Shown: positions 547 to 15,667 of the stretch, piece after piece
How the letters are laid out: each line of letters starts with the position of its first letter
How positions within the stretch are numbered: position 1 is the stretch's first letter
Assembly: GCA_036170655.1 (NCBI GenBank)
Contig: JAVHPP010000046.1
Coordinates: 1 to 16,368, forward strand
Direction of reading: 5' to 3'
Source of the DNA: Candidatus Zixiibacteriota bacterium
GTDB taxonomy: Bacteria > Zixibacteria > MSB-5A5 > WJJR01
DNA: 16,368 nucleotides
The notes under the pieces: model-generated
What the model was told of the DNA's origin: nothing
The model's database searches: none
Seen by the model: the letters and a program-made list of their open reading frames with translations, nothing else
Position numbers and translations under genes: made by a program

Positions 547-1647
547 TCAACCTCCTGCACTGGCATGCTCGCGGGCGCCCGCGAGCACCTGATTTCTCTG
601 GATCATTTCGTTGAGTTCCTGCGGATTGGAAGAGCGGCCAACGGCATCGCCCATCGTGATCTTCCGCGTCAAATACAATTCGGCGAGGGATTGGTTCATC
701 GTCCGCATACCGAACTTCTGTCCCGCCTGGATGAGACTGTATATCTGATGGACCTTGTCGTCGCGGATGACGGCCCGGATCGCCGGTGTGCAGATCATCA
801 CTTCCATTGCCAGGACACGTCCGCCCCCAATCCGCGGAATCAGTTGCTGTGAAACAACCGCCTGGATCACAAAGGACAAAGTGACACGGATCTGCTCCTG
901 TTGATTGACCGGGAACACATCGATGATGCGATTGATCGATTCGGCGCAGGAGTTCGTGTGCAGTGTGGCAAAGGCGAGATGGCCGGTCTCGGAAATCCGC
1001 AGGGCGGCATCGACCGTCTCCAAATCGCGCATTTCACCGATCAGCACCACATCCGGGTCTTCGCGCAGGGCGTATTTCAGCGCCGAGGCGAACGACGGCG
1101 TATCCGAGTAGACTTCACGCTGGTTGACCAGCGAGAACTGATGCCGATGGAGATATTCGATCGGATCCTCAACGGTAATGATGTGACAATAAAGCTCGCG
1201 GTTGATCTTGTCGATCAGGGCCGCCAGCGTGGTCGTTTTCCCCGAACCCGTGGGACCCGTCACCAGGACGAGACCGCGCGGGAGGTTGGCGAGTTCGCTG
1301 ACAACACGCGGCACGCCCAGTTCCTCGAACGAGCTGATCTTGTACGGGATCTGGCGGATGGCTACGGCGACGTTGCCGCGTTGCATAAAGACATTGCAAC
1401 GGAACCGGCTCAGGGATTCGATACCAAACGAGAGATCGAGTTCCCAATTCTCTTCGAATTTCTTGCGCTGCTTTTCATTCATCACGCTGTAGGCGAGCTT
1501 CTTGGTCTGCTCCCCAGTCAGCGGTTCCATGTCGGTGCGCGTGAGGTGCCCATCAACCCGCAACTGGGGCGGGGACCCCACAGTCAGGTGGAGATCCGAC
1601 GCCTTGCGTTGATACATCAACTCGAGCAATTCTCGTAAGGTCACCAT
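547..1647 (-). CDS. pilT: Type IV pilus retraction ATPase PilT (366 aa)
   Basis: ASDLHLTVGSPP, Walker A GPTGSGKTT, TVEDPIEY, LREDPDVVLIGEMRD, TLHTNS, and an AIRNLIRE-like AIRAVIRD. Start placed at ATG 1647 (MVTLRELL); the 1884 start overlaps pilB and adds an implausible N-terminus. Confidence 0.96.
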   Translation of the reverse strand: MVTLRELLELMYQRKASDLHLTVGSPPQLRVDGHLTRTDMEPLTGEQTKKLAYSVMNEKQRKKFEENWELDLSFGIESLSRFRCNVFMQRGNVAVAIRQIPYKISSFEELGVPRVVSELANLPRGLVLVTGPTGSGKTTTLAALIDKINRELYCHIITVEDPIEYLHRHQFSLVNQREVYSDTPSFASALKYALREDPDVVLIGEMRDLETVDAALRISETGHLAFATLHTNSCAESINRIIDVFPVNQQEQIRVTLSFVIQAVVSQQLIPRIGGGRVLAMEVMICTPAIRAVIRDDKVHQIYSLIQAGQKFGMRTMNQSLAELYLTRKITMGDAVGRSSNPQELNEMIQRNQVLAGAREHASAGG

Positions 1648-1750: not shown

Positions 1751-3442
1751 TCAGGTGGATTCGGCCAGAACCTGGTCGATTGGGATCTGCCCCAGTGACA
1801 TCTTCTCGATGGCCGCCTGCCGCAACGACTGCATCCCCTCGCTAACCGCCTGCTGGCGGAGTTCGTCAACAGACGCAGAGGCAAGAATCATGCGTTCGAT
1901 TGCCGGAGAGATCGGCATCACTTCGAAGATGCCCGTACGCCCGGAGAGCCCCGTGTGATTGCACTCGGGACATCCCGTGCCTTCAAAAATGTGCAGGTTC
2001 CCGGCGTCTTCCCGTGTCATCTGGAGCTTGGCCAGGTGCTCATCGCTCACCTCGATTTCGCGGCGGCAGTGAGCGCAGATCTTTCGCGTCATACGCTGTG
2101 CCATGATCAGTTTGGCTCCCGACGCAACCAGGTATGGGGGGATTCCCATATCGATCAGGCGGTTGACCGACGACGGCGCATCGTTGGTGTGCAACGTGGA
2201 GAAAACGAGGTGCCCGGTCAAAGCCGCGCGAATGGCGATTTCCGCCGTCTCCCCGTCACGAATCTCACCCACCATGATAATGTCCGGGTCCTGGCGCAAG
2301 AATGAACGCAGCGACGCTGCAAAGGTCAGTCCGATGTCAGTGCGGACCAGCACTTGATTGATCCCTTCGAAGTTGAACTCCACGGGATCTTCTGCGGTCA
2401 GGATATTGACTTCAGGGTCGTTGAGCGTCTTGAGGGCCGAGTAGAGCGTGGTGGTCTTTCCCGATCCTGTCGGTCCAGTCACGAGGATCATACCGTAGGG
2501 CAGGTTGATTGCCCGCTGAAAATTGTCGAGGGCCAGTTCGGGGAATCCCAGCTGGGTCAGATCCGCCATGAGCGATTGCGGATCGAGAATTCGCATAACC
2601 ACTTTTTCACCGAAGATCGTCGGGAGAACAGACACGCGAAGATCGACGGCACGATTGCCGAATTTGACTTTAATGCGGCCGTCCTGCGGCAGCCGCCGCT
2701 CCGAAATATCCAGGTCGGCCATGATCTTGACGCGCGAGACGATCGCGGCCCGGTACTTGAACGGCAGCGGTTCGGTCTCCTTCAAGACGCCGTCGATCCG
2801 GTAGCGGACGCGGATGCGTTTCTCGTAGGATTCGATGTGAATATCCGACGCGCCACGGCGGATGGCTTCGAGGATGATACCGTCCACAAGTTTAACCAGC
2901 GGCTTGTCCTGCACTTGCGAACGCAAGTCATTCTCGTTGACCGTTTCCTCGGTTTCAATGACCTCGAGTCCGCTTTCATCCTCCAATCCCTTGAGCAGAT
3001 CGCCGATGCCGCCGGTGTCCTTGTAGCACTGGTCGATCGTCCGCGCGATCGCCCGTTCGGGAGAGATGACCGGCTGGATGGTGCAGCCGGTAATGAATTT
3101 CAACGCGTCGAGGACATAGATGTTGTGGGGATCACTGATGGCCACAACCAGTGTTTTGTTCAGCTTGGAGATGGCGATGACATTGAAACGCCGGGCGATA
3201 TCCAACGGGATGAGCCTGACGATCTCGGGGTTGAGTTCGACGTCCGAGAGTCTCAGCGCCCCAATGTTGAGCTGACGGCCAATAAAGTGGGTGAGTTCGT
3301 CCTCATCGGCAACGGCCCCCATCCGCACGAGAATGTCGACAAACTTCTCATTGGTGGCTTTCTGCTTCTCGAGGGCCTGGGCCAGTTGATCAGCACTGAT
3401 CTTCCCTGCCTTGACCAGCATATGGCCGAGTTCTTGCGACAT
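1751..3442 (-). CDS. pilB: Type IV pilus extension ATPase PilB (563 aa)
   Basis: N-terminal GSPII_N/MshEN-like region, ASDIHIE, LDISERRLPQDGR, Walker A GPTGSGKTT, TAEDPVE, LRQDPDIIMVGEIRD, TLHTND, Zn-binding CAHC...CPEC. Confidence 0.96.
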   Translation of the reverse strand: MSQELGHMLVKAGKISADQLAQALEKQKATNEKFVDILVRMGAVADEDELTHFIGRQLNIGALRLSDVELNPEIVRLIPLDIARRFNVIAISKLNKTLVVAISDPHNIYVLDALKFITGCTIQPVISPERAIARTIDQCYKDTGGIGDLLKGLEDESGLEVIETEETVNENDLRSQVQDKPLVKLVDGIILEAIRRGASDIHIESYEKRIRVRYRIDGVLKETEPLPFKYRAAIVSRVKIMADLDISERRLPQDGRIKVKFGNRAVDLRVSVLPTIFGEKVVMRILDPQSLMADLTQLGFPELALDNFQRAINLPYGMILVTGPTGSGKTTTLYSALKTLNDPEVNILTAEDPVEFNFEGINQVLVRTDIGLTFAASLRSFLRQDPDIIMVGEIRDGETAEIAIRAALTGHLVFSTLHTNDAPSSVNRLIDMGIPPYLVASGAKLIMAQRMTRKICAHCRREIEVSDEHLAKLQMTREDAGNLHIFEGTGCPECNHTGLSGRTGIFEVMPISPAIERMILASASVDELRQQAVSEGMQSLRQAAIEKMSLGQIPIDQVLAEST

Positions 3443-3518
3443 GGCGTTTCTTCAGATGCGGGGCACACCGCCCACGGGATGGGAAAACCGGACGACCGGA
3501 GAGTTCCCGAAAAGCGAT

Positions 3519-3998
3519 CTACTCCTTGAATACATCGTCGATTTTTGACCCGGCGCTGCGGGCAAACTCCGGATCAATGGCTGGTTCTTCCTTGTTGTCA
3601 GATTCCGTCAGAATCTCCTTGAGGCGATCACCCGTCTCCTTGGCAAACAAGCGCACCATCCCAATCGTCGTGCGATCATCAAAGAGGACGGCGAGAATGC
3701 AGCGCTCCCCGACCAGCGAGACGTGGATGTGATCTTTCTTCCCCTGATGGAACAGCACGGAAAATTCCGGCTCACCAACCAGCCGGGCGATTTCTTTGGT
3801 CGAAGCGAAGCTTCCGGCCAGCAGCGCCGCCAGCGCGGTGGTGTCCAGGGTCTGCGTGAATCCCTGCCGTGTGATGAGATGGCCGTCCTTGTCCACCAGC
3901 AGCGCGCACTTGGCTTCCGCCTTTTTGATCATGCGCAACAGGGCGGCATTGATCTGGTTAACCTGTTCCTCGTAGACAACGAACGAATGTGACGACAT
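3519..3998 (-). CDS. mglB: MglB, roadblock/LC7-domain GTPase-activating protein of MglA (159 aa)
   Basis: LLVDKDGHLI, LDTTALAALLAGSFAST, GEPEFSVLFHQG, LAVLFDDRTTIGMVRL and C-terminal KIDDVFKE resemble Myxococcus MglB. Strong SD (GGAGGT) directly after the mglA stop. Confidence 0.92.
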   Translation of the reverse strand: MSSHSFVVYEEQVNQINAALLRMIKKAEAKCALLVDKDGHLITRQGFTQTLDTTALAALLAGSFASTKEIARLVGEPEFSVLFHQGKKDHIHVSLVGERCILAVLFDDRTTIGMVRLFAKETGDRLKEILTESDNKEEPAIDPEFARSAGSKIDDVFKE

Positions 3999-4009
3999 GA
4001 GTCACCTCC

Positions 4010-4954
4010 CTAACGGCCAGTCAACCACCCGAACAGGCGGTCCCAGAATGATCGTTGACGACTCCTGATCCGTCGGCTGGGCTGCCGTGCAAAGACAACG
4101 TCGCGCGGAATCGGAGTGGCACGATGTGCAATTCCTGTCTGTGTAATTTTGTTGCTGCTGATCAGCGCGTCGGCGCCCTGCCCAGAGGGCGGGGGCGGCT
4201 CTTCGACCGCAACGGCACTGCGGTTTGCCTGCGTCCATGATCCGCCGTTGGGTACTGTGGCAACGGTCTGCGCATACACCGGCTCGGCCCTCTGAGACGA
4301 GACATCCACCCGTTCGGGCATCGGAGCCGACGCGGCACCGATCTGGGGAACGCCATCGGGGGAAACCGCCGTTTCACGCTTCGTGTGTTCCAATACCAGC
4401 TTCGTGATCCGTTTGAGAGTGTCAAACACACCGGTCCCGTTGACTGCCGAGGCTTCGGTGCAGACCCAGCCTTCGGGATTCAACGCCTTCTGCAGTTCAT
4501 CAATGGAACAGATGTCGGGCAGATCTCTTTTGTTGTATTGAATGACGACCGGAATTTCAGAGAGATCGATGCCGTTTTCCCGCAGGTTCTCGTACATGTT
4601 GGTCAGCGATTCGATGTTTTCATCCATCTTTGCCTTCTGCGAGTCGGCGACAAAGACAATCCCGTCCACGCCTCGGAGCACGAGTTTGCGTGTGGCGTTG
4701 TAGAAGACTTGTCCCGGGACGGTGTACAATTGGAACTTGGTGGCGAACCCGGCGATATCTCCCACGTGGATCGGCAGGAAGTCGAAATACAAGGTCCGGT
4801 CGGCCTCGGTCGCCAGGCTGATCAGATCACCCCGCGATTTCGAGGGGATTCGGTCATGGACGTACTGAAGGTTGGTCGTCTTGCCCGACAACCCGGGACC
4901 GTAGTACACGATCTTGCAGCTAATCTCGCGAAATGCGTAGTTGATCGTTACCAT
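4010..4954 (-). CDS. mglA: MglA-family small Ras-like GTPase with C-terminal extension (314 aa)
   Basis: INYAFREISCKIVYYGPGLSGKTTNL (G1), TEADRTLYFDFLP (switch I with intrinsic Arg), TVPGQVFY (G3, catalytic Gln), QYNKRD (G4). Start placed at ATG 4954 (MVTINY). Confidence 0.95.
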   Translation of the reverse strand: MVTINYAFREISCKIVYYGPGLSGKTTNLQYVHDRIPSKSRGDLISLATEADRTLYFDFLPIHVGDIAGFATKFQLYTVPGQVFYNATRKLVLRGVDGIVFVADSQKAKMDENIESLTNMYENLRENGIDLSEIPVVIQYNKRDLPDICSIDELQKALNPEGWVCTEASAVNGTGVFDTLKRITKLVLEHTKRETAVSPDGVPQIGAASAPMPERVDVSSQRAEPVYAQTVATVPNGGSWTQANRSAVAVEEPPPPSGQGADALISSNKITQTGIAHRATPIPRDVVFARQPSRRIRSRQRSFWDRLFGWLTGR

Positions 4955-4996: not shown

Positions 4997-5335
4997 TCAG
5001 ATGTTGCGCAGCTCGTTGATTGCGTTTCGGATTTCGAGTCGCACGAGGCCGATATTGACACGAGAGTCGGTGGTCACCACCAGTGTTCCGATGCCGGCAT
5101 CGGCCAGGAACATTTTCCGGTTGTCTGCCTCCACGGTGATTTGAGAGAAATCACCACTGCCCATGTTGTCAAGTGACCGGCGGACGGTCGCCACAATGGA
5201 TGAGGCCAGCGCCCCGACGGTGTCATCTTCGACCTGACTGTTGAGATCGGCGGCGATCACGATGCCGTCGGCGCCGACAACCATGCTGCCGGTCACACCG
5301 TTGGTCTTGTTCAACTGCGTGAGAACGTCATACAT
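4997..5335 (-). CDS. Stand-alone roadblock/LC7 domain protein (MglB/MglC-like paralogue, 112 aa)
   Basis: GVTGSMVVGADGIVIAA...VGALASSI...LVVTTDSRVNIGLVRLEI. ATG at 5335 with SD GGAGG at 5342-5346, overlapping the upstream stop (ATGTATGA). Confidence 0.88.
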   Translation of the reverse strand: MYDVLTQLNKTNGVTGSMVVGADGIVIAADLNSQVEDDTVGALASSIVATVRRSLDNMGSGDFSQITVEADNRKMFLADAGIGTLVVTTDSRVNIGLVRLEIRNAINELRNI

Positions 5336-6275
5336 ATCGAGCCTCCTGCAGTCCCGTGGACTGGACACAGCGTTCTTGAAGATGCTTCAGAATCATGTCA
5401 CGTGATTGCGACAGCCGCAGACCGATCAAATCGTCGGCGTCCCGGTTGGTCAAGACACCAAGCCAGAGTTCTCCAACCGCCTCCAGGATAATCCGGCCGG
5501 CATCGGTACGAACTTCGACGCGCTGGGGGGTGACTTCCCCCGCCGCGGAGAGACATCGGCGATTGAATTCAACGATCTCAATCGAAATTGGCGCCCAGAA
5601 ATCGACACTGCCGGTGTATTCCTGTCGCTGCCACACCGCCAGTGGCAACCCTTCGGCATCGACCAGCCAGGAAATCCGCACACCGTCATAAGCGCCAACG
5701 TACGCGAGAGCGTTGTCGAACGTCAGGTGCGAACGGTGCAACAAAGATCGCGTGTCTGTCCCCGACCCGAAGGATTTCGACAGATCTCCTCCGGCCATTC
5801 TGGGAACATGAACCGGATGGGAGGGACGAAACCCTGCGATCCGCGGCCGCGGAAGATCAGCGCCCCAAAGGCTCTTCAGCAGAACACGGATGACAAATGG
5901 CGCGGCCGCCACCTGCAGGATCAGCAATGGTGGGAACGACCACAGGGCAAATTTCACAGACGAAACCCACGACAAATCGTGGCCGGCCGCCAGGAGAGAA
6001 CCGGAGGCGACACCGCACAGATAACGATAGGCCAAGGTGAATACGGCCGCCGCCATACGTTTGGAGACGGTCAGCCACGAAGCAAGCGGGATCAGCAAAA
6101 CGAAGTACAAAGCGCATTCGATCAGAACCATCACGGGCCGATAGCGGAACGGCATCAAGCCGGCAGCGCCGGGGTAAAACAGCAACGGGATGACGGCCAA
6201 GGCCCCCGTCCAGAGAATCATCTGCCGGATGGTGACGGAGGAACTGGTCGATCCATGTCTGTCAGCGAGAGGCAT
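5328..6275 (-). CDS. Membrane protein: about 4 N-terminal TM helices plus C-terminal roadblock/LC7-like domain (315 aa)
   Basis: Hydrophobic segments in aa ~19-135, then a Pro/Gly linker. aa ~184-300 (GVRISWLVDAEGLPLA...VEVRTDAGRIILE...LWLGVLTNRDADDLIGLRL) follow the roadblock pattern. SD AAGGGA. Confidence 0.75.
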   Translation of the reverse strand: MPLADRHGSTSSSVTIRQMILWTGALAVIPLLFYPGAAGLMPFRYRPVMVLIECALYFVLLIPLASWLTVSKRMAAAVFTLAYRYLCGVASGSLLAAGHDLSWVSSVKFALWSFPPLLILQVAAAPFVIRVLLKSLWGADLPRPRIAGFRPSHPVHVPRMAGGDLSKSFGSGTDTRSLLHRSHLTFDNALAYVGAYDGVRISWLVDAEGLPLAVWQRQEYTGSVDFWAPISIEIVEFNRRCLSAAGEVTPQRVEVRTDAGRIILEAVGELWLGVLTNRDADDLIGLRLSQSRDMILKHLQERCVQSTGLQEARYV

Positions 6276-6313: not shown

Positions 6314-7258
6314 TTAGACATCCATCGGCAAATCAGCCGGCGCTGTACCGTCGTCGTGGGTCGCTTGCATTCCCTTCGACGGCGACGTGACTTCGCCGTA
6401 CGAAGGAGGAGAATTCACACGTTTCGCCATATCGACGCCACGCTGGCGTATGGCCCCGAACGACATTAGACGAAGGCCAACCAAGCCAAAGGCCAAGTCG
6501 CCGTTCTTCCTCGCCCATATCTCGGAGCTGGCTGTTTCAATGTGAACTTCCTGGAGAGGACTCCATGCGTGGTGGCACAAGAGCTCATCAATGACCTGCG
6601 CCAGTGAACGAACAGAGCCTGCCCGACCCTCTGTCTCTGCGGATCGTGGGTGGACCGACACAAGCTGATCAACCCGGTCGTACACAAAAGCCGCCTCGAC
6701 GCCGCGCAAATTCCCGATCGCGCTGGCCCACTCTTCCCAACCGATCGGATCAGGCGTGTTGCGCATCTCCGGGGCGGGATGGTGTTCCCCGTCGGAGTCG
6801 GTTGCCGGCGAGGGCAGTACACCTTGGCCCGGTTTGGCCGCGCCCAATTGCTTCACCTGCTCCACCAGTTCGGCGAGTCCCGGGTTCCCCGGATCGGAGA
6901 TCCTCAGCCGATCGATTACGGCCTGGGCGGCTTTGCTGTCTCCAGTGGCGATCTGGATCTCTGCTTCCAACAGATCAGTCGTGCGTGTCTGTCCATCCAG
7001 CTCGATGGCACGACGTAACGCACCCAATGCGTCTCCGAGCATTCGCTGATACAAGTAGAGTTTTGCCAGAACGACGTGCGCTGGCGCGTAGTCAGGATGG
7101 TGCTTCAGGCCGCTTTTGCACACCGAAAAGGCCCGCCCGAATTCACCCCGACGACGGTATGCTTCGGCAAGCGCCGCAAACACCTGCGAATGAGGATTGT
7201 CGGCCAGGATGGCCAGACACCGGTCGATTCGCTCGTCAAGCTCGGCAACGTTAATCAT
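6314..7258 (-). CDS. TPR-repeat protein with probable C-terminal divergent roadblock domain (314 aa)
   Basis: TPR-like helices (FAALAEAYRRRGEFGRA...HPDYAPAHVVLAKLY...ALRRAIELD), a Pro-rich linker, then GVEAAFVYD...LQEVHIET...LAFGLVG...FGAIR. Start placed at ATG 7258 (SD AAGG); TTG at 7288 is an alternative. Confidence 0.75.
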   Translation of the reverse strand: MINVAELDERIDRCLAILADNPHSQVFAALAEAYRRRGEFGRAFSVCKSGLKHHPDYAPAHVVLAKLYLYQRMLGDALGALRRAIELDGQTRTTDLLEAEIQIATGDSKAAQAVIDRLRISDPGNPGLAELVEQVKQLGAAKPGQGVLPSPATDSDGEHHPAPEMRNTPDPIGWEEWASAIGNLRGVEAAFVYDRVDQLVSVHPRSAETEGRAGSVRSLAQVIDELLCHHAWSPLQEVHIETASSEIWARKNGDLAFGLVGLRLMSFGAIRQRGVDMAKRVNSPPSYGEVTSPSKGMQATHDDGTAPADLPMDV

Positions 7259-7341
7259 AAGTGACCTTGAAAATGCAGACTCAGGCAACAGCCCCGGTGC
7301 CCGCCTGCACGGCAGGGGCTATCTCCATGCCACATTTGTTG

Positions 7342-7934: not shown

Positions 7935-9104
7935 TCACACCCCCCGTAAGGCCTGCCGAATATCCCTGCCTATATCATATTTGTCGGCCAGCGACCGCTT
8001 TTGGGCAAGCAAGAAGGACAGGTCTTTTTGGATACCACTCGTGACGCGACCGGCAATTCCTGGCCCCAGCCAGTCTGCCGTCAGACGCACCCTGTCCGCA
8101 AGAATCTGATTGGCGGACGACAGCGCCCGGTGCAAACGTACCGGATCGGGAATTCCGGACATCTCTTTCTGCAACGAATCAACCGGACCGCCCGGCGTGA
8201 TCAGGACATCGAACAACCGGGACCGATCGCTCTCCCATCCCTCTGGCGCCCGGCAAAACAATCGCTCACCCGAAGGTCCAAGGTACTCGACCAATACCTT
8301 ATGCACGGCTTGAAGAGCGTGAGTGTAAAGACGGTAGATCAACTCGTACACCATCTCTTCCTCGCCCTTTCGGCTGGCACGTTCAGCCGCATCAGGACAG
8401 GGCTCAACCAGAGAAGATTTCAGGAGCTTGTGCAGAGACTTCGAGGCCGAATACTCACCATGAGCGGCCGATGAGATGATGTCGGAGACGCTCCGTTCAC
8501 CGTTCACGGCGACTAGCACATCAATGTCTTCTCCGGTGAGAACGATATTGGGTTCTTCCATGCGTGGGGAGGGACTCAAGCGGAGGACAGTCGCCGCGTC
8601 GGGAAGGGAATGGGCGACCTCTGCATATTCGTCGAATCGGCGGGCGCCCTCCATCATCACGTTCAAGGTGTTGAGTTCCACGAGAATCTGACCGGGGTCT
8701 GGCGCCTCCCCATCCAGAAAGCGGAACTCCGCTTCCGGCCAGGCAAAGACACTATAGACAACCTCCTCCACTTGGGCGCGCAGCGAGTCAAGAATGATGG
8801 CCCGGTCAAGGATACCCATTTCGATCAGGACATGTCCGAGCCGCTTGCCGGAGGATCGCTGCTTCTTGAGCGCCTTGTCCAAATCGTCTGCAGTGATCTG
8901 TCCCCGGCGCAGAAGAACCTGCCCAAGCCGTTCTTCGATCGTCGAGGGCTGCGCGGCGGCGGTCACGATGTTTCCGCCACGGAAATAAATCTTCTTCGCG
9001 GCATTTGCACGGAGCAATTGCAAGACACCGGTCTTCTTCCCGGTCGAGATAAGCTGGAGGATATCTCCAAAGGAGACAGTCTTGAGATTTCCGGTGAACC
9101 CCAT
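7935..9104 (-). CDS. DUF4388 (PATAN-like) domain protein with inserted tandem MshEN motif (389 aa)
   Basis: GFTGNLKTVSFGDILQLISTGKKTGVLQL...IYFRGGNIV...VFAWPEAEFRF...LNVMMEGARRFDE is DUF4388-like. The insert is RLGQVLLRRGQITADDLDKALKKQ-RSSGK-RLGHVLIEMGILDRAIILDSLRAQ. Start placed at ATG 9104 (SD GAGGG). Confidence 0.85.
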   Translation of the reverse strand: MGFTGNLKTVSFGDILQLISTGKKTGVLQLLRANAAKKIYFRGGNIVTAAAQPSTIEERLGQVLLRRGQITADDLDKALKKQRSSGKRLGHVLIEMGILDRAIILDSLRAQVEEVVYSVFAWPEAEFRFLDGEAPDPGQILVELNTLNVMMEGARRFDEYAEVAHSLPDAATVLRLSPSPRMEEPNIVLTGEDIDVLVAVNGERSVSDIISSAAHGEYSASKSLHKLLKSSLVEPCPDAAERASRKGEEEMVYELIYRLYTHALQAVHKVLVEYLGPSGERLFCRAPEGWESDRSRLFDVLITPGGPVDSLQKEMSGIPDPVRLHRALSSANQILADRVRLTADWLGPGIAGRVTSGIQKDLSFLLAQKRSLADKYDIGRDIRQALRGV

Positions 9105-9159
9105 GGTCGCCCTCGCGGCGGCGCGCGCGACTCCGCGACTCATTGACCGCCACGTATCT

Positions 9160-9201: not shown

Positions 9202-11514
9202 TCAGGGGGCGGGATCTCTGACAGTTGGCACGATTGTTGTGGATGACGGTCTCCATTCGATCATAACACCGCCATTGAGGGTCGTCGACCAGAATTGAAC
9301 CGATGGGAACTGCGCCCGCCACCGTTCCAGCCACTGCTCCTCGTGTCCCGGCTGTGCATATCCACCAAACAAGATCACGCGTTCGGGAGCCAGCCGCGCA
9401 AGCAGCGTCGCGCCCAAGCGAGACGGCAGGCCGCCGGGGAGCACAATCGTGCGCGCCGAAGCCATCGCCTGTGTCAGCCACTCGGCGCCGGGGGGTGAAG
9501 TCGGATAGTCTCGCAGACAGAAGATTGTGTCGCCATACCACGCGAACTGCTCGCCCCACACACGTGGCGGCTCTTTGGCATCGGTCGAATATGACACAAA
9601 CCGCTTCCAGGATGGAACTGAACTCTCGTGATGCAGCAATATCACATCCGTGGTTGACACACTTGACGAATCCAGCCAACGCCATGGACCAAGGCGGAAT
9701 GGGACATCACTGTAGCCAGATTGGGATCGGGCAAACGGGACCAAGATCCACTCCTGCAAACCCTCATCCAAATCCGGTGAATCGACCAGCCACAATCCCT
9801 GCTCTCGCTGGTGCATATAGGCCGCCACACGGGTAGCACCTGCGTCAAGGTAGGCAAGGGTGATGGGCGGGCGAGATTGTGAATGCAGACTCCAGATCGC
9901 CATAGCGGGAACAAGCGCAACCGAATACCAGGCTACGAGCCTCGCCCAACGATAACGGTGACGCCAGTTTAGCAGCAGGAACACAGCAAGATAGAAGTGG
10001 ATGATAGCGATCCAGGATGGATCAGGCCATGAAAGTCGCGCGCCGGGGAGTCTCGAAAAGAATCCAGCCGTGCCCGAGGTCAGCTCGACGACCCATTGCA
10101 CGGGAATGGCAACCCACCCCGCCAGCGGCCCGGGCACGAATGCAATCACCGCGAGTGTCAACCCACCGTATAATGATGCCGCCGCGAGCGGGATCATGCA
10201 GAGATTGGCGGGCACGGACCATGCCGGCACAGTCCCGAAATGACGCGCGACGATCGGGACAGTCACCAGTGTGGCTGCGGTCGATGTCGCCAGAACGAGT
10301 AACGGGACACGGAGCCATCCGCGTTTCGGCAGCCACTCCCACCTCTGTGCCCGCTGCGTCACCAGCGTGATGCCGATGACCGCCACATAAGAAAGCTGGA
10401 ATCCCGGGCGAAACAGTTGCGACGGTGACACCAGCAGGATGGTCAGGGCAGAAACACCCACCGCGTTGAGAAATTGTACAGGCCGAAACAAGAGACGTCC
10501 AATCAACATGGTTGAAATCATGAGCGAAGCGCGCACCACCGACGGTTCGTTCCGTGTCAGAAAGCTGAACGCAATGACGATCAGTATCAGCACGACCGTC
10601 CGCGGCCATCGCGGTACGCGCATGATCCGCAAGGGCCAGAGCAAGAGCCCGACGACCAGCCAGACATTGGCACCGGAGACGGCAAGCAGATGCATTGTCC
10701 CCGAGTCACGGAAAGCGTTGACAATGCTCTGCGGCAATTGATCGGTGTCGCCCAAGAAAAAACCGAGAATGAGCCCACCGGCCGGTCTGGGAAGGGCGCC
10801 GGCAATGGCGGCACGAATCCACCGGCGAACCGGCTCGACATACCGGTCCAGTGACCAACGCGATCCCGCGTCGGAGAGAGATCTGATGTGTCCTGACGGT
10901 CGCAGGAGTCCATCAATTCCCTGACGGTAGAGATGAGCGGCGTAATCGAAGCCACCGGGATTTCTTTGCACGAAGGGAATCACAATGCGGGCGGGGAACT
11001 GAAGGAGATCCCCAGAGTGGAATTCGCCGGTGCTGAGACGTGTCGTCAGTAGCAGGCGTGCCGTCACCGGAATGTGCCCCCGCTCTGTGCGGATGGCCTC
11101 GAGATCAAAGGGAGCCCGCCATCCGGCTGCCCTCTGCTCCGGCGATCCGGCCAGATGTCCCACGACATCTACCGTTTTGCCCGACTGCATGAGTGTCGCC
11201 AACGCCGGTGAAGGACGGTTGCTATTCTCCAACGTGATCCGCCATGCTCCCAACGCGATGAGCAGGAGACCGGCGAACAACACGGGCCATGCCGTACGGT
11301 CAGCCAGCGATTTCAGCATCACGACGGCTATGATTCCGGTGACGGTGAAAATCGCCCAAGTCGCAATGGGCCAGGCGCCCCAGTCGCCAACCACAATACC
11401 CACTGCGAGAAGGACTGAAGCGAACAGGGCCGGGTGGCGTTGTCCGGCGATGCACACCCAAGACTTTGCGGGATTCTGTCTCTGACTCCCGACGGTCGCG
11501 GTCCAAGTATCCAT
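9202..11514 (-). CDS. comEC: ComEC/Rec2 DNA-uptake channel (DUF4131 OB domain, Competence domain, degenerate MBL-like domain)
   Basis: RNPGGFDYAAHL, FRDSGTMHLLAVSGANV, PSVVRASLM, PGFQLSY and many TM helices. No clear SD, so the exact start is uncertain. Confidence 0.93.
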   Translation of the reverse strand: MDTWTATVGSQRQNPAKSWVCIAGQRHPALFASVLLAVGIVVGDWGAWPIATWAIFTVTGIIAVVMLKSLADRTAWPVLFAGLLLIALGAWRITLENSNRPSPALATLMQSGKTVDVVGHLAGSPEQRAAGWRAPFDLEAIRTERGHIPVTARLLLTTRLSTGEFHSGDLLQFPARIVIPFVQRNPGGFDYAAHLYRQGIDGLLRPSGHIRSLSDAGSRWSLDRYVEPVRRWIRAAIAGALPRPAGGLILGFFLGDTDQLPQSIVNAFRDSGTMHLLAVSGANVWLVVGLLLWPLRIMRVPRWPRTVVLILIVIAFSFLTRNEPSVVRASLMISTMLIGRLLFRPVQFLNAVGVSALTILLVSPSQLFRPGFQLSYVAVIGITLVTQRAQRWEWLPKRGWLRVPLLVLATSTAATLVTVPIVARHFGTVPAWSVPANLCMIPLAAASLYGGLTLAVIAFVPGPLAGWVAIPVQWVVELTSGTAGFFSRLPGARLSWPDPSWIAIIHFYLAVFLLLNWRHRYRWARLVAWYSVALVPAMAIWSLHSQSRPPITLAYLDAGATRVAAYMHQREQGLWLVDSPDLDEGLQEWILVPFARSQSGYSDVPFRLGPWRWLDSSSVSTTDVILLHHESSVPSWKRFVSYSTDAKEPPRVWGEQFAWYGDTIFCLRDYPTSPPGAEWLTQAMASARTIVLPGGLPSRLGATLLARLAPERVILFGGYAQPGHEEQWLERWRAQFPSVQFWSTTLNGGVMIEWRPSSTTIVPTVRDPAP

Positions 11515-14473: not shown

Positions 14474-15667
14474 CTACCAAACCAAATGCCGTGCCAGGCG
14501 TAGCAGCGACGGGCGGTGGCGCAGGGCGGTCTTGATGACATCGATGGGATCGATGGCGGTAACCGTCTGGCCGTTGTAGATCGTGGCCAGAAATCCAATG
14601 ACATCATCATATTCGGTGTTGGACATACGCAGCATGATGTTGCGCGTCCAAAGAAAGTAACGCATCTGGCGACCGCGCGCCGCCATCCACCGGGATGGGT
14701 ACTGGCGCAGAATGGTGAGGTCGCGGTGGCCGTCACGCAGGCAGGCGACAGCCGCTTCGGCGGCGAGGCGGCCCGACCAGAGGGCGTTGGCGATACCGGC
14801 GCCGGTCACCGAGTCGACCAGACGGGCCGCATCGCCCGTCACCATGACGTTGCCCCTGAGCATGAGCTTGCGTCCGCAAAACTCCGGAATTCCTCCCACG
14901 CTGCGCCGCAGCGGCTTGGGACCGGGTCCCTTGAAACGAAACTGGATAAACTCACCCAGCATGGTCATCGCCTTGCGGCCATGAGCAACGGCGGGCGCGA
15001 GCGCCAGCCCGACATTGGCAGCGCCGTTTCCCTTGGGGAAGACCCACGCGTATCCCCCGGGGGCGAAACGATCATCGAAGTAGAACTCCATCCGCGACGG
15101 GTCAAGTTCGGGGACATCCCCTAATAGGAATTGCGCCGCAGAGTCGACGCGATTGAGCGGCAACACCGTGTCCAGTCCCGCCCACCGAGCCACCATGGAT
15201 TCGATACCGTCGGCGGCAATGATGATGTCGCAGCCGACGTCATAAGTCGTGCCGTTTTCGCGCAGACGAATTCCCGCAAAGCGTTCGCTGTCATTGGGAA
15301 TCAGGCCGACCGCCTCTGTGCTTGTGCGCACCTGTGCGCCATATCCAGCCGCCATGTCGGCCAACCCCTGCTCAAAACGGCGGCGGGAGAGGACAAAACC
15401 GGCGTCTGGATGGTGCAATTCGAGTTCCATCCCACCGGGCGAACGCAGATAGCAGCGTTCGATCCCGGCCGCGACCCAGTCACGGTTGAGTTCGATGTTA
15501 TCAGTCAGACCACAGAGGGAAATCCCTTCTGCGCAGCAGAGCGGTTCGCCAATAACTGCATGTTTCTCGATCAGCAGCGTCCGGCAACCCGCACGCGCCG
15601 CGGTCAGAGCCGCCAACCCACCAGCCGGGCCTGCTCCGACGACGACAATGTCAAACTCCTGGTCCAT
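14474..15667 (-). CDS. Geranylgeranyl reductase-family FAD oxidoreductase (DGGGPL reductase-like, 397 aa)
   Basis: DIVVVGAGPAG, PLCCAEGIS, IIAADGIESMVAR, APGGYAWVFPKG (PxxYxWxFP), GDAARLVDSVTGAGIANA. Confidence 0.88.
   Translation of the reverse strand: MDQEFDIVVVGAGPAGGLAALTAARAGCRTLLIEKHAVIGEPLCCAEGISLCGLTDNIELNRDWVAAGIERCYLRSPGGMELELHHPDAGFVLSRRRFEQGLADMAAGYGAQVRTSTEAVGLIPNDSERFAGIRLRENGTTYDVGCDIIIAADGIESMVARWAGLDTVLPLNRVDSAAQFLLGDVPELDPSRMEFYFDDRFAPGGYAWVFPKGNGAANVGLALAPAVAHGRKAMTMLGEFIQFRFKGPGPKPLRRSVGGIPEFCGRKLMLRGNVMVTGDAARLVDSVTGAGIANALWSGRLAAEAAVACLRDGHRDLTILRQYPSRWMAARGRQMRYFLWTRNIMLRMSNTEYDDVIGFLATIYNGQTVTAIDPIDVIKTALRHRPSLLRLARHLVW

What the first reader, a model, noticed from the sequence alone, without database searches (positions are those of the whole stretch)
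4010..4375. MglA has a ~120-aa tail ending in a MinD-like membrane-targeting helix
Seen: the GTPase core ends near 4376. It is followed by a Pro/Ala/Ser/Gln-rich, probably disordered linker, an Arg-rich patch (RQPSRRIRSRQR) and a terminal SFWDRLFGWLTGR (4051-4013). Known: M. xanthus MglA is ~195 aa with no tail, and MinD binds membranes through a C-terminal amphipathic helix of the GFLKRLFGG type. Inference: this MglA may attach directly to anionic membranes, a bacterial analogue of the polybasic, lipidated hypervariable tail of Ras.
Basis: partly seen in the sequence, partly recalled or inferred. Interest (0 to 1): 0.7.

Follow-up and report, generated by a model that had tools for sequence, protein, structure and literature searches.

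The report
Bacterial Ras-like switch with membrane tether
This gene encodes a bacterial Ras-like switch protein (MglA) that, unlike the small forms studied so far, carries a long floppy tail ending in a positively charged, greasy helix that most likely ties it to the cell membrane, and relatives in another bacterial group carry a membrane-spanning helix at the same spot.

Summary
The 314-aa MglA (4954-4010, minus strand) has an intact group-1 GTPase core, a 90-aa disordered linker, a polybasic patch and a terminal amphipathic helix. It is no artefact. All 99 distinct complete orthologues examined from the window's phylum (Zixibacteria, by homologue names) have a 106-456-aa tail. Of these, 97 end basic and aromatic, against 20 of 1729 genome ORFs and 0 of 45 short MglAs. 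Strain variants change the linker but not the core or the tip. The best evidence for membrane binding is a swap: in a Planctomycetota-centred sample the same linker ends in a transmembrane helix (43 of 46), with amphipathic forms nested among them. Most Fibrobacterota forms end amphipathically (29 of 43). Nothing is shown experimentally. The helix alone barely beats its shuffles (p=0.055), and 13 Fibrobacter-type tails lack it. With no cysteine, the closer eukaryotic analogues are the basic-tailed RIT and RGK proteins rather than prenylated Ras. Long 'MglA2' proteins were noted in 2010 without an anchor, and the main survey excluded sequences over 240 aa. This scan has noted the Zixibacteria and Planctomycetota forms before on other DNA. 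New variant of a known kind.

The parts
4010..4954 (-). mglA, long form, 314 aa; the only MglA match in the genome
4376..4954 (-). GTPase core, residues 1-193: G1 GPGLSGKT, intrinsic Arg53, G3 TVPGQ, G4 NKRD; K181 and K185 of the pocket for the MglB C-terminal helix are kept
4106..4375 (-). Disordered Pro/Ala/Ser-rich linker, residues 194-283, poorly conserved and variable in length
4052..4105 (-). Conserved Ser motif (S293 in 88 of 91 close homologues) and polybasic patch, residues 284-301
4013..4051 (-). Terminal amphipathic helix SFWDRLFGWLTGR, residues 302-314, predicted membrane-targeting sequence
3519..3998 (-). mglB (Roadblock/LC7, with acidic C-terminal helix), directly downstream of mglA
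   Evidence: NCBIfam MglB 94 bits, below its cut-off of 200
4997..5335 (-). Second Roadblock/LC7 protein, directly upstream of mglA
5328..6275 (-). Protein with hydrophobic N-terminal half and a weak C-terminal Roadblock match
   Evidence: PF03259 E 0.002, below cut-off
6314..7288 (-). TPR protein
7935..9143 (-). DUF4388 protein with an MshE-related c-di-GMP-binding motif
   Evidence: NF053729 over cut-off
1751..3442 (-). PilB-like ATPase (MshEN + T2SSE), directly after mglB
547..1647 (-). PilT-like ATPase (T2SSE); 'PilT' is my reading of the sequence and position

Best explanation
The tail is a membrane tether. The polybasic patch draws the C-terminus to anionic inner-membrane lipids, and the terminal helix inserts its F303/W304/L307/W310/L311 face into the interface. 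The GTPase core hangs from this on a flexible leash of about 90 residues. It keeps the ordinary group-1 cycle with the adjacent MglB and, by gene order, acts on the type IV pilus motors. The anchor most likely binds whatever the nucleotide state, so it concentrates the switch at the membrane and does not itself switch. Shown: anatomy, conservation, gene order and the swap with transmembrane anchors. Inferred: lipid binding, nucleotide independence and the link to pili.
For: (a) All 99 distinct complete orthologues from genome handles have a 106-456-aa tail. In 97 of 99 the last 26 residues have net charge of +5 or more and the last 16 have at least 2 F/W, against 20 of 1729 genome ORFs and 0 of 45 short MglAs. 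(b) The commonest tip, GFFKRLFGIK (14 of 90 motif-bearing tips), differs by few letters from the E. coli MinD tag KGFLKRLFGG that was used as a transplantable membrane anchor (PMC5471200, passage; PMC8155659, passages). (c) Swap: 43 of 46 complete MglAs from the phylum of G211 end in a 17-residue hydrophobic stretch after the same kind of linker. The other 3 end in an amphipathic basic helix. Two of these 3 were in the careful tree, nested among transmembrane forms (99/97 and 100/98), and one clade of all amphipathic forms is rejected (AU p=0.001). (d) In the phylum of G208, 29 of 43 end amphipathic or basic-aromatic, and 119 of 120 homologues of one such protein carry the hydrophobic pattern. 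(e) Strain variants: core 7 of 7 synonymous, linker 6 of 8 non-synonymous, basic stretch 3 of 3 synonymous, none listed in the helix. (f) AlphaFold2 gives coil and then one helix. (g) Linker length varies more than fourfold, as expected for a leash.
Against: No binding experiment exists. The query helix alone beats its own shuffles only at p=0.055. The group shuffle test (0.555 against 0.47, 0 of 200) is also passed by the ordinary last helix of short MglAs (0.451 against 0.401, 0 of 200), so it shows helical periodicity and not lipid binding. Some families have a low moment (0.25 in f7, 0.36 in f10). Thirteen Fibrobacter-type tails end in an acidic DDEIELRPY motif, and most long paralogues in the phylum of G210 end in a beta-hairpin-like motif, so a long linker does not always carry a lipid anchor. 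The groups in the AU test were named after I had seen a quick tree. The samples were top hits plus hand-picked rows, and kin are not independent.
Confidence: 0.8

Rival explanations
1. The tip is mainly a protein-binding motif, for example for the neighbouring TPR or Roadblock proteins, a pilus platform protein or an acidic partner. Any lipid affinity is incidental.
For: A Ser-containing motif just before the basic patch is conserved beyond what lipid binding needs (S293 in 88 of 91 close homologues; a looser pattern in 64 of 99 across the phylum). A TPR gene lies in the same row. Other long MglAs end in motifs that do not look like anchors.
Against: The tip tolerates many sequences as long as charge and aromatics are kept. 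A transmembrane helix stands in its place in another phylum. The allosteric pocket on MglA is basic (K181/K185, PMC6785124 passages; kept here) and should not take a basic helix.
Confidence: 0.12
2. The helix is a regulated, reversible anchor: released or exposed by nucleotide state, by MglB binding, or by phosphorylation of the serine beside the basic patch, so that MglA cycles on and off the membrane. This refines the best explanation and competes only with its 'constitutive' step.
For: A single E. coli MinD helix is too weak and needs dimerisation (PMC8155659). Asgard Arf membrane binding depends on GTP (PMC11914678, passages). The genome has 8 protein-kinase-domain matches. S293 is conserved.
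Against: The helix is about 110 residues from the core and the linker length varies widely. It is predicted stronger than the MinD tag (interface sum -3.9 for 13 residues against -1.6 for 9, scale recalled). Transmembrane relatives cannot cycle. S302 is often Gly in other families and looks like a helix cap.
Confidence: 0.25
3. The tail is a read-through, frameshift or assembly artefact, or a neutral extension.
For: The linker is low in complexity and has no family match.
Against: 99 of 99 orthologues carry it. A contig from a separate study spans 3500-4756 without gaps. The tip is under purifying selection.
Confidence: 0.01
4. The basic tail binds nucleic acid or serves as a degradation tag.
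For: The net charge is +7 over the last 26 residues. Exposed C-termini are common protease tags (established knowledge).
Against: It does not explain the aromatic helix face or the transmembrane equivalents.
Confidence: 0.04

Closest known systems
Group-1 MglA with MglB (Myxococcus xanthus, Thermus thermophilus; PDB 5ymx, 6izw, 3t12; Wuichet and Sogaard-Andersen, PMC4316618)
   Same: Core matches over residues 3-193 (E 3e-75); Arg53, TVPGQ, NKRD, K181/K185; adjacent mglB with an acidic C-terminal helix.
   Different: Those are 195-197 aa with no tail. Gene order here is mglA then mglB (112 of 112 loci with room downstream), whereas 41 of 45 short MglAs have mglB upstream. The survey excluded sequences over 240 aa.
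'Group II / MglA2' proteins of Fremgen et al. 2010 (PMC3000849, section 11 read)
   Same: [quoted passage not shown]
   Different: A size class only: the section names no linker, no membrane anchor and no test. The Fibrobacter-type tails I saw lack the terminal helix.
MinD (and FtsA) C-terminal membrane-targeting sequence
   Same: Terminal hydrophobic-hydrophobic-x-basic-hydrophobic-hydrophobic-Gly helix after basic residues; moment 0.65-0.76 against 0.55 for KGFLKRLFGG.
   Different: Unrelated host protein. A much longer leash and basic patch. MinD needs ATP-driven dimerisation to bind, while MglA binds MglB as a monomer. The likeness is of pattern; homology is not shown.
Eukaryotic RIT1/2 and RGK (Rad, Rem) GTPases
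   Same: Ras-type core with a basic C-terminal extension that binds anionic lipids (PMC13565119, abstract); Rad has a predicted polybasic amphipathic helix needed for membrane localisation (PMC11244639, passages).
   Different: Different GTPase family, so an analogy by convergence. That these proteins lack a lipid modification is recalled, not read in those passages.
Asgard Arf GTPases (PMC11914678, passages)
   Same: Prokaryotic small GTPase that binds membranes through an amphipathic helix without needing myristoylation.
   Different: The helix is N-terminal, next to the core and gated by GTP; here it is C-terminal and far from the core.

Membership tests
Group-1 MglA | Intrinsic arginine finger beside the G2 threonine | tested here: met
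   R53, T54 in the query; pattern in 99 of 99 orthologues (definition)
Group-1 MglA | G3 motif TVPGQ | tested here: met
   99 of 99
Group-1 MglA | Coupled Roadblock-fold MglB gene | tested here: met
   PF03259 at 3519-3998; downstream in 112 of 112 loci with room
Group-1 MglA | Single-domain size of 150-240 aa (the survey's working criterion) | tested here: not met
   314 aa; criterion. Hence a variant and not a plain member.
Group-1 MglA | GTP hydrolysis stimulated by MglB | not testable with these tools
   needs biochemistry
MinD-type membrane-targeting sequence | Short amphipathic helix at the extreme C-terminus | tested here: met
   helix 304-312; moment peaks at 100 degrees; own-shuffle p=0.055
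MinD-type membrane-targeting sequence | Basic residues flanking the hydrophobic face | tested here: met
   net +7 in the last 26 residues; median +8 in 99 orthologues
MinD-type membrane-targeting sequence | Transplantable lipid binding | not testable with these tools
   needs GFP fusion or liposomes
MinD-type membrane-targeting sequence | Binding gated by nucleotide-driven dimerisation of the host protein | not tested
Ras/Rab prenylated hypervariable region | C-terminal cysteine for prenylation | tested here: not met
   0 of 99 and 0 of 120 have Cys in the last 10 residues
Ras/Rab prenylated hypervariable region | Hypervariable disordered linker with a polybasic patch after the G domain | tested here: met
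   linker identity 15%; coil

The most novel reading that the evidence does not exclude
Zixibacteria, Fibrobacterota and Planctomycetota share one old subfamily of MglA, marked by the gene order mglA-mglB and a hypervariable leash, in which the membrane anchor is a swappable module (amphipathic helix or transmembrane helix). The amphipathic version is released reversibly, for example by phosphorylation of the serine beside the basic patch, so that bacteria run a membrane on/off cycle of a Ras-like GTPase of the kind thought to have arisen with eukaryotes.
Probability: 0.2. Interest if true: 0.82.

Novelty: new variant of a known kind. Interest (0 to 1): 0.6.

Why it matters
The MglA proteins listed as characterised are 176-239 aa single domains, and that M. 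xanthus MglA is placed by partner proteins is recalled knowledge. [quoted passage not shown] If the tail binds lipids, whole bacterial phyla have reached the same design (core, hypervariable leash, basic patch, anchor) without prenylation, and a 240-aa filter hid them from the standard survey. It is cheap to test in E. coli, and it bears on how a polarity switch is held at the pilus motor outside Myxococcus.

Tried and rejected
Artefact or read-through: rejected. Family match for the tail: none in Pfam at E up to 1 or in NCBIfam, none among solved structures at E up to 10, no usable Atlas hit; these blanks show nothing about novelty. A link 'anchor present only when mglB is adjacent' appeared (0 of 13 for tails classed 'other' in the phylum of G208) but fell: those loci have a divergent Roadblock ORF downstream (Pfam confirmed on the 2 tested). 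The motif-anchored shuffle test is circular and I do not rely on it; one search is the non-circular version. The family PF01656 gave two matches in the genome and neither ends in such a helix, so no MinD control was at hand; the genome's FtsA does end in an amphipathic helix (moment 0.62). A single origin of the long anchored forms: they are one side of a branch at only 84/80 in an unrooted tree, so neither shown nor rejected, and gain cannot be told from loss. No RNA holder listed. Cluster look-ups for 10 odd representatives gave no informative names, and one search listed no cultured species by name. PMC4508894 passages held nothing on direct MglA-lipid binding. RomR/RomX were not searched for.

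Full report
Observation. The gene runs from ATG 4954 to the stop at 4010 on the minus strand and gives 314 aa. Residues 3-193 match solved M. xanthus and T. thermophilus MglA (E 3e-75 and 1e-71), leaving a 121-aa tail. The tail has a Pro/Ala/Ser-rich linker (194-283), a stretch with a conserved serine and many arginines (284-301), and the terminal SFWDRLFGWLTGR. AlphaFold2 on a 91-sequence alignment models the core, then coil at low confidence, then one helix at 304-312. The helix moment is 0.72 and peaks at 100 degrees. It is reached by 29 of 1729 crudely called ORF ends of the genome, but against shuffles of its own 13 residues p is 0.055. All hydrophobicity scales were recalled. It is the genome's only MglA match. 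It lies in a minus-strand row: DUF4388 protein with a c-di-GMP motif, small hydrophobic protein, TPR protein, hydrophobic protein with a weak Roadblock match, Roadblock, mglA, mglB, pilB-like and pilT-like ATPases.

Conservation in the phylum. Named homologues point to Zixibacteria (the name first came from earlier scan notes). MglA was found in 197 of 201 genomes of the phylum sample. I fetched the top 30 loci of two searches and 60 hand-picked loci, covering 17 of the 19 families listed. Three run off contig ends and were dropped, and duplicates were merged, leaving 99 distinct sequences. All 99 have tails of 106-456 aa (median 179), keep Arg53 and TVPGQ, and have no cysteine in the last 10 residues; 90 carry a hydrophobic-hydrophobic-x-x-hydrophobic-hydrophobic pattern. 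A fixed rule (net charge of +5 or more in the last 26 residues and at least 2 F/W in the last 16) is met by 97 of 99, by 20 of 1729 genome ORFs and by 0 of 45 short MglAs. Among 90 close homologues, identity to the query is 82% (core), 15% (linker), 41% (basic stretch) and 65% (helix). The helical moment exceeds shuffles for all 99 and for one sequence per family (0 of 200 each), but the last helix of short MglAs does so too, so the test shows periodicity only; some families have a low moment. Contigs from other runs give strain variants: core 7 of 7 synonymous, linker 6 of 8 non-synonymous, basic stretch 3 of 3 synonymous. Some core variants may come from other organisms, and the numbers are small. 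One contig from a separate study spans 3500-4756 without gaps.

What stands at the same place elsewhere. The genome scan returned 57 loci below the Zixibacteria-like block. Of the 56 complete ones, 45 are short (189-211 aa) and 11 are long. I then sampled the phyla around three of these genomes. Around G211 (its locus is titled Planctomycetota), 118 of 201 genomes matched at E 1e-40. Of 46 complete distinct sequences (top hits to a transmembrane-type query, 20 hand-picked lower ones and one second paralogue; 3 open-ended and 1 masked dropped), 43 have a transmembrane-like stretch in the tail and 3 end in a basic amphipathic helix. Around G208 (titled Fibrobacterota), 68 of 81 matched. Of 43 complete sequences (5 open-ended and 1 masked dropped), 29 end amphipathic or basic-aromatic, 1 more looks so by eye, and 13 end in an acidic DDEIELRPY motif. 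Around G210 (titled Latescibacterota), the long paralogues mostly end in a beta-hairpin-like motif (18 of 27 by pattern) and have no adjacent mglB by tblastn. Among the best 150 representatives of a profile search, my classifier called 41 amphipathic, 7 basic-aromatic, 29 transmembrane, 18 hairpin, 54 other and 1 unclassified; the middle of that listing was cut from view. The anchored forms share the order mglA then mglB (112 of 112, 43 of 45, and 15 of 19 loci with room), whereas 41 of 45 short forms have mglB upstream. In a 50-sequence tree of cores (LG+G4, unrooted), the two amphipathic Planctomycetota forms included nest among transmembrane forms. One clade of all amphipathic forms is rejected (AU p=0.001; groups named after a first quick tree). 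The anchored phyla are one side of a branch at only 84/80. So anchor type has changed at least once inside a lineage; a single origin of the tail is open.

How it probably works. Basic residues bring the tip to anionic lipids, and the aromatic face inserts. The core, on a leash, runs the normal MglA/MglB cycle; K181 and K185, which bind the acidic MglB C-terminal helix in M. xanthus (PMC6785124, passages), are kept in 100 of 101 scorable sequences of the Zixibacteria-like group (12 more could not be scored). The E. coli MinD helix is too weak as one copy (PMC8155659, passages). This one has two tryptophans, two phenylalanines and seven net positive charges, so I infer that one copy suffices and that binding does not depend on nucleotide. 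Action on the pilus motors is inferred from gene order alone. Rivals are a protein-binding motif (0.12), a regulated anchor (0.25, overlapping with the best reading), artefact (0.01) and nucleic-acid binding or a degron (0.04).

Comparison with what is known. The core is a group-1 MglA by every motif, but fails the 150-240 aa criterion by which Wuichet and Sogaard-Andersen excluded longer sequences (PMC4316618, passages). Fremgen et al. [quoted passage not shown] The tip resembles the MinD tag KGFLKRLFGG (PMC5471200, passage). Eukaryotic analogues are RIT1/2 (PMC13565119, abstract) and Rad (PMC11244639, passages). The prokaryotic precedent is Asgard Arf with an N-terminal helix (PMC11914678, passages). 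Archaeal Rab-like proteins lack such extensions (PMC4915359 and PMC10933270, passages). Searches listed no paper whose title or abstract start describes a membrane-anchored MglA, and none holds both 'Zixibacteria' and 'MglA'. The library lacks most subscription papers. I read no supplements; the tables of PMC4316618 and PMC6785124 may list long MglA sequences.

Earlier notes of this scan describe the Zixibacteria operon with its tail and the Planctomycetota transmembrane form (read after I had seen it); a look-up for the Fibrobacterota amphipathic form returned nothing. I tested these claims myself as above.

Verdict. A real, phylum-wide, selected feature; very probably a membrane tether (0.8); a new variant of a known switch, unproven at the bench but easy to test. 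Interest 0.6.

Noticed in passing
L270-L279, L287-L289 (MglA C-termini and the ORF after each): Fibrobacter-type MglA tails end in acidic DD(D/E)I(E/V)LRPY and carry 2-3 (S/P)(P/T)F(G/R/A) repeats, while the Roadblock ORF downstream (138-141 aa) lacks the acidic C-terminal helix of MglB. The tail might supply that helix in cis; untested.
   Followed up: partly
L160:2742-3629 (+): The MglB-like Roadblock protein after this MglA is 296 aa and itself ends in a basic amphipathic-looking tip (KGILSRFFNRSR), so the partner may be tethered too.
   Followed up: no
L172, L175, L182, L310-L338: A separate MglA clade (100/98) with a long linker mostly ending in a beta-hairpin-like motif with no Pfam match, not beside mglB, often in genomes that also hold a short MglA.
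   Followed up: partly
L296, L304, L309: Three MglAs in the phylum of G211 have an amphipathic, lysine-rich tip in place of the transmembrane helix; two have the shortest tails seen (63-65 aa).
   Followed up: partly
L241-L269, L281-L286: Fibrobacterota tails have their own conserved hydrophobic-serine motif (such as YFTSV) before the basic patch, paralleling MAPSL/MQKSL/QPSR in the window's phylum.
   Followed up: no
L300, L305, L237, L290, L291: Some transmembrane forms continue for 52-122 residues after the helix, so they would have an outside domain.
   Followed up: no
window 7935-9143 (-): The DUF4388 protein carries an MshE-related c-di-GMP-binding motif over the NCBIfam cut-off, a possible second-messenger input to the module.
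   Followed up: partly
window 9202-11514 (-): A ComEC-like DNA-uptake gene lies upstream in the same direction as the MglA-pilus row.
   Followed up: no
window 14474-15667 (-): Geranylgeranyl-reductase-family flavoprotein (PF22578), near murJ and a small ribosomal-protein-like ORF; probably unrelated to the tail.
   Followed up: no
L122, L125, L128, L131-L133, L141-L143: Several records titled Ignavibacteria or Terriglobales carry the tailed Zixibacteria-type MglA, some with the same tail and length as proteins from genomes in the window's own phylum sample; their titles may be mislabels.
   Followed up: no
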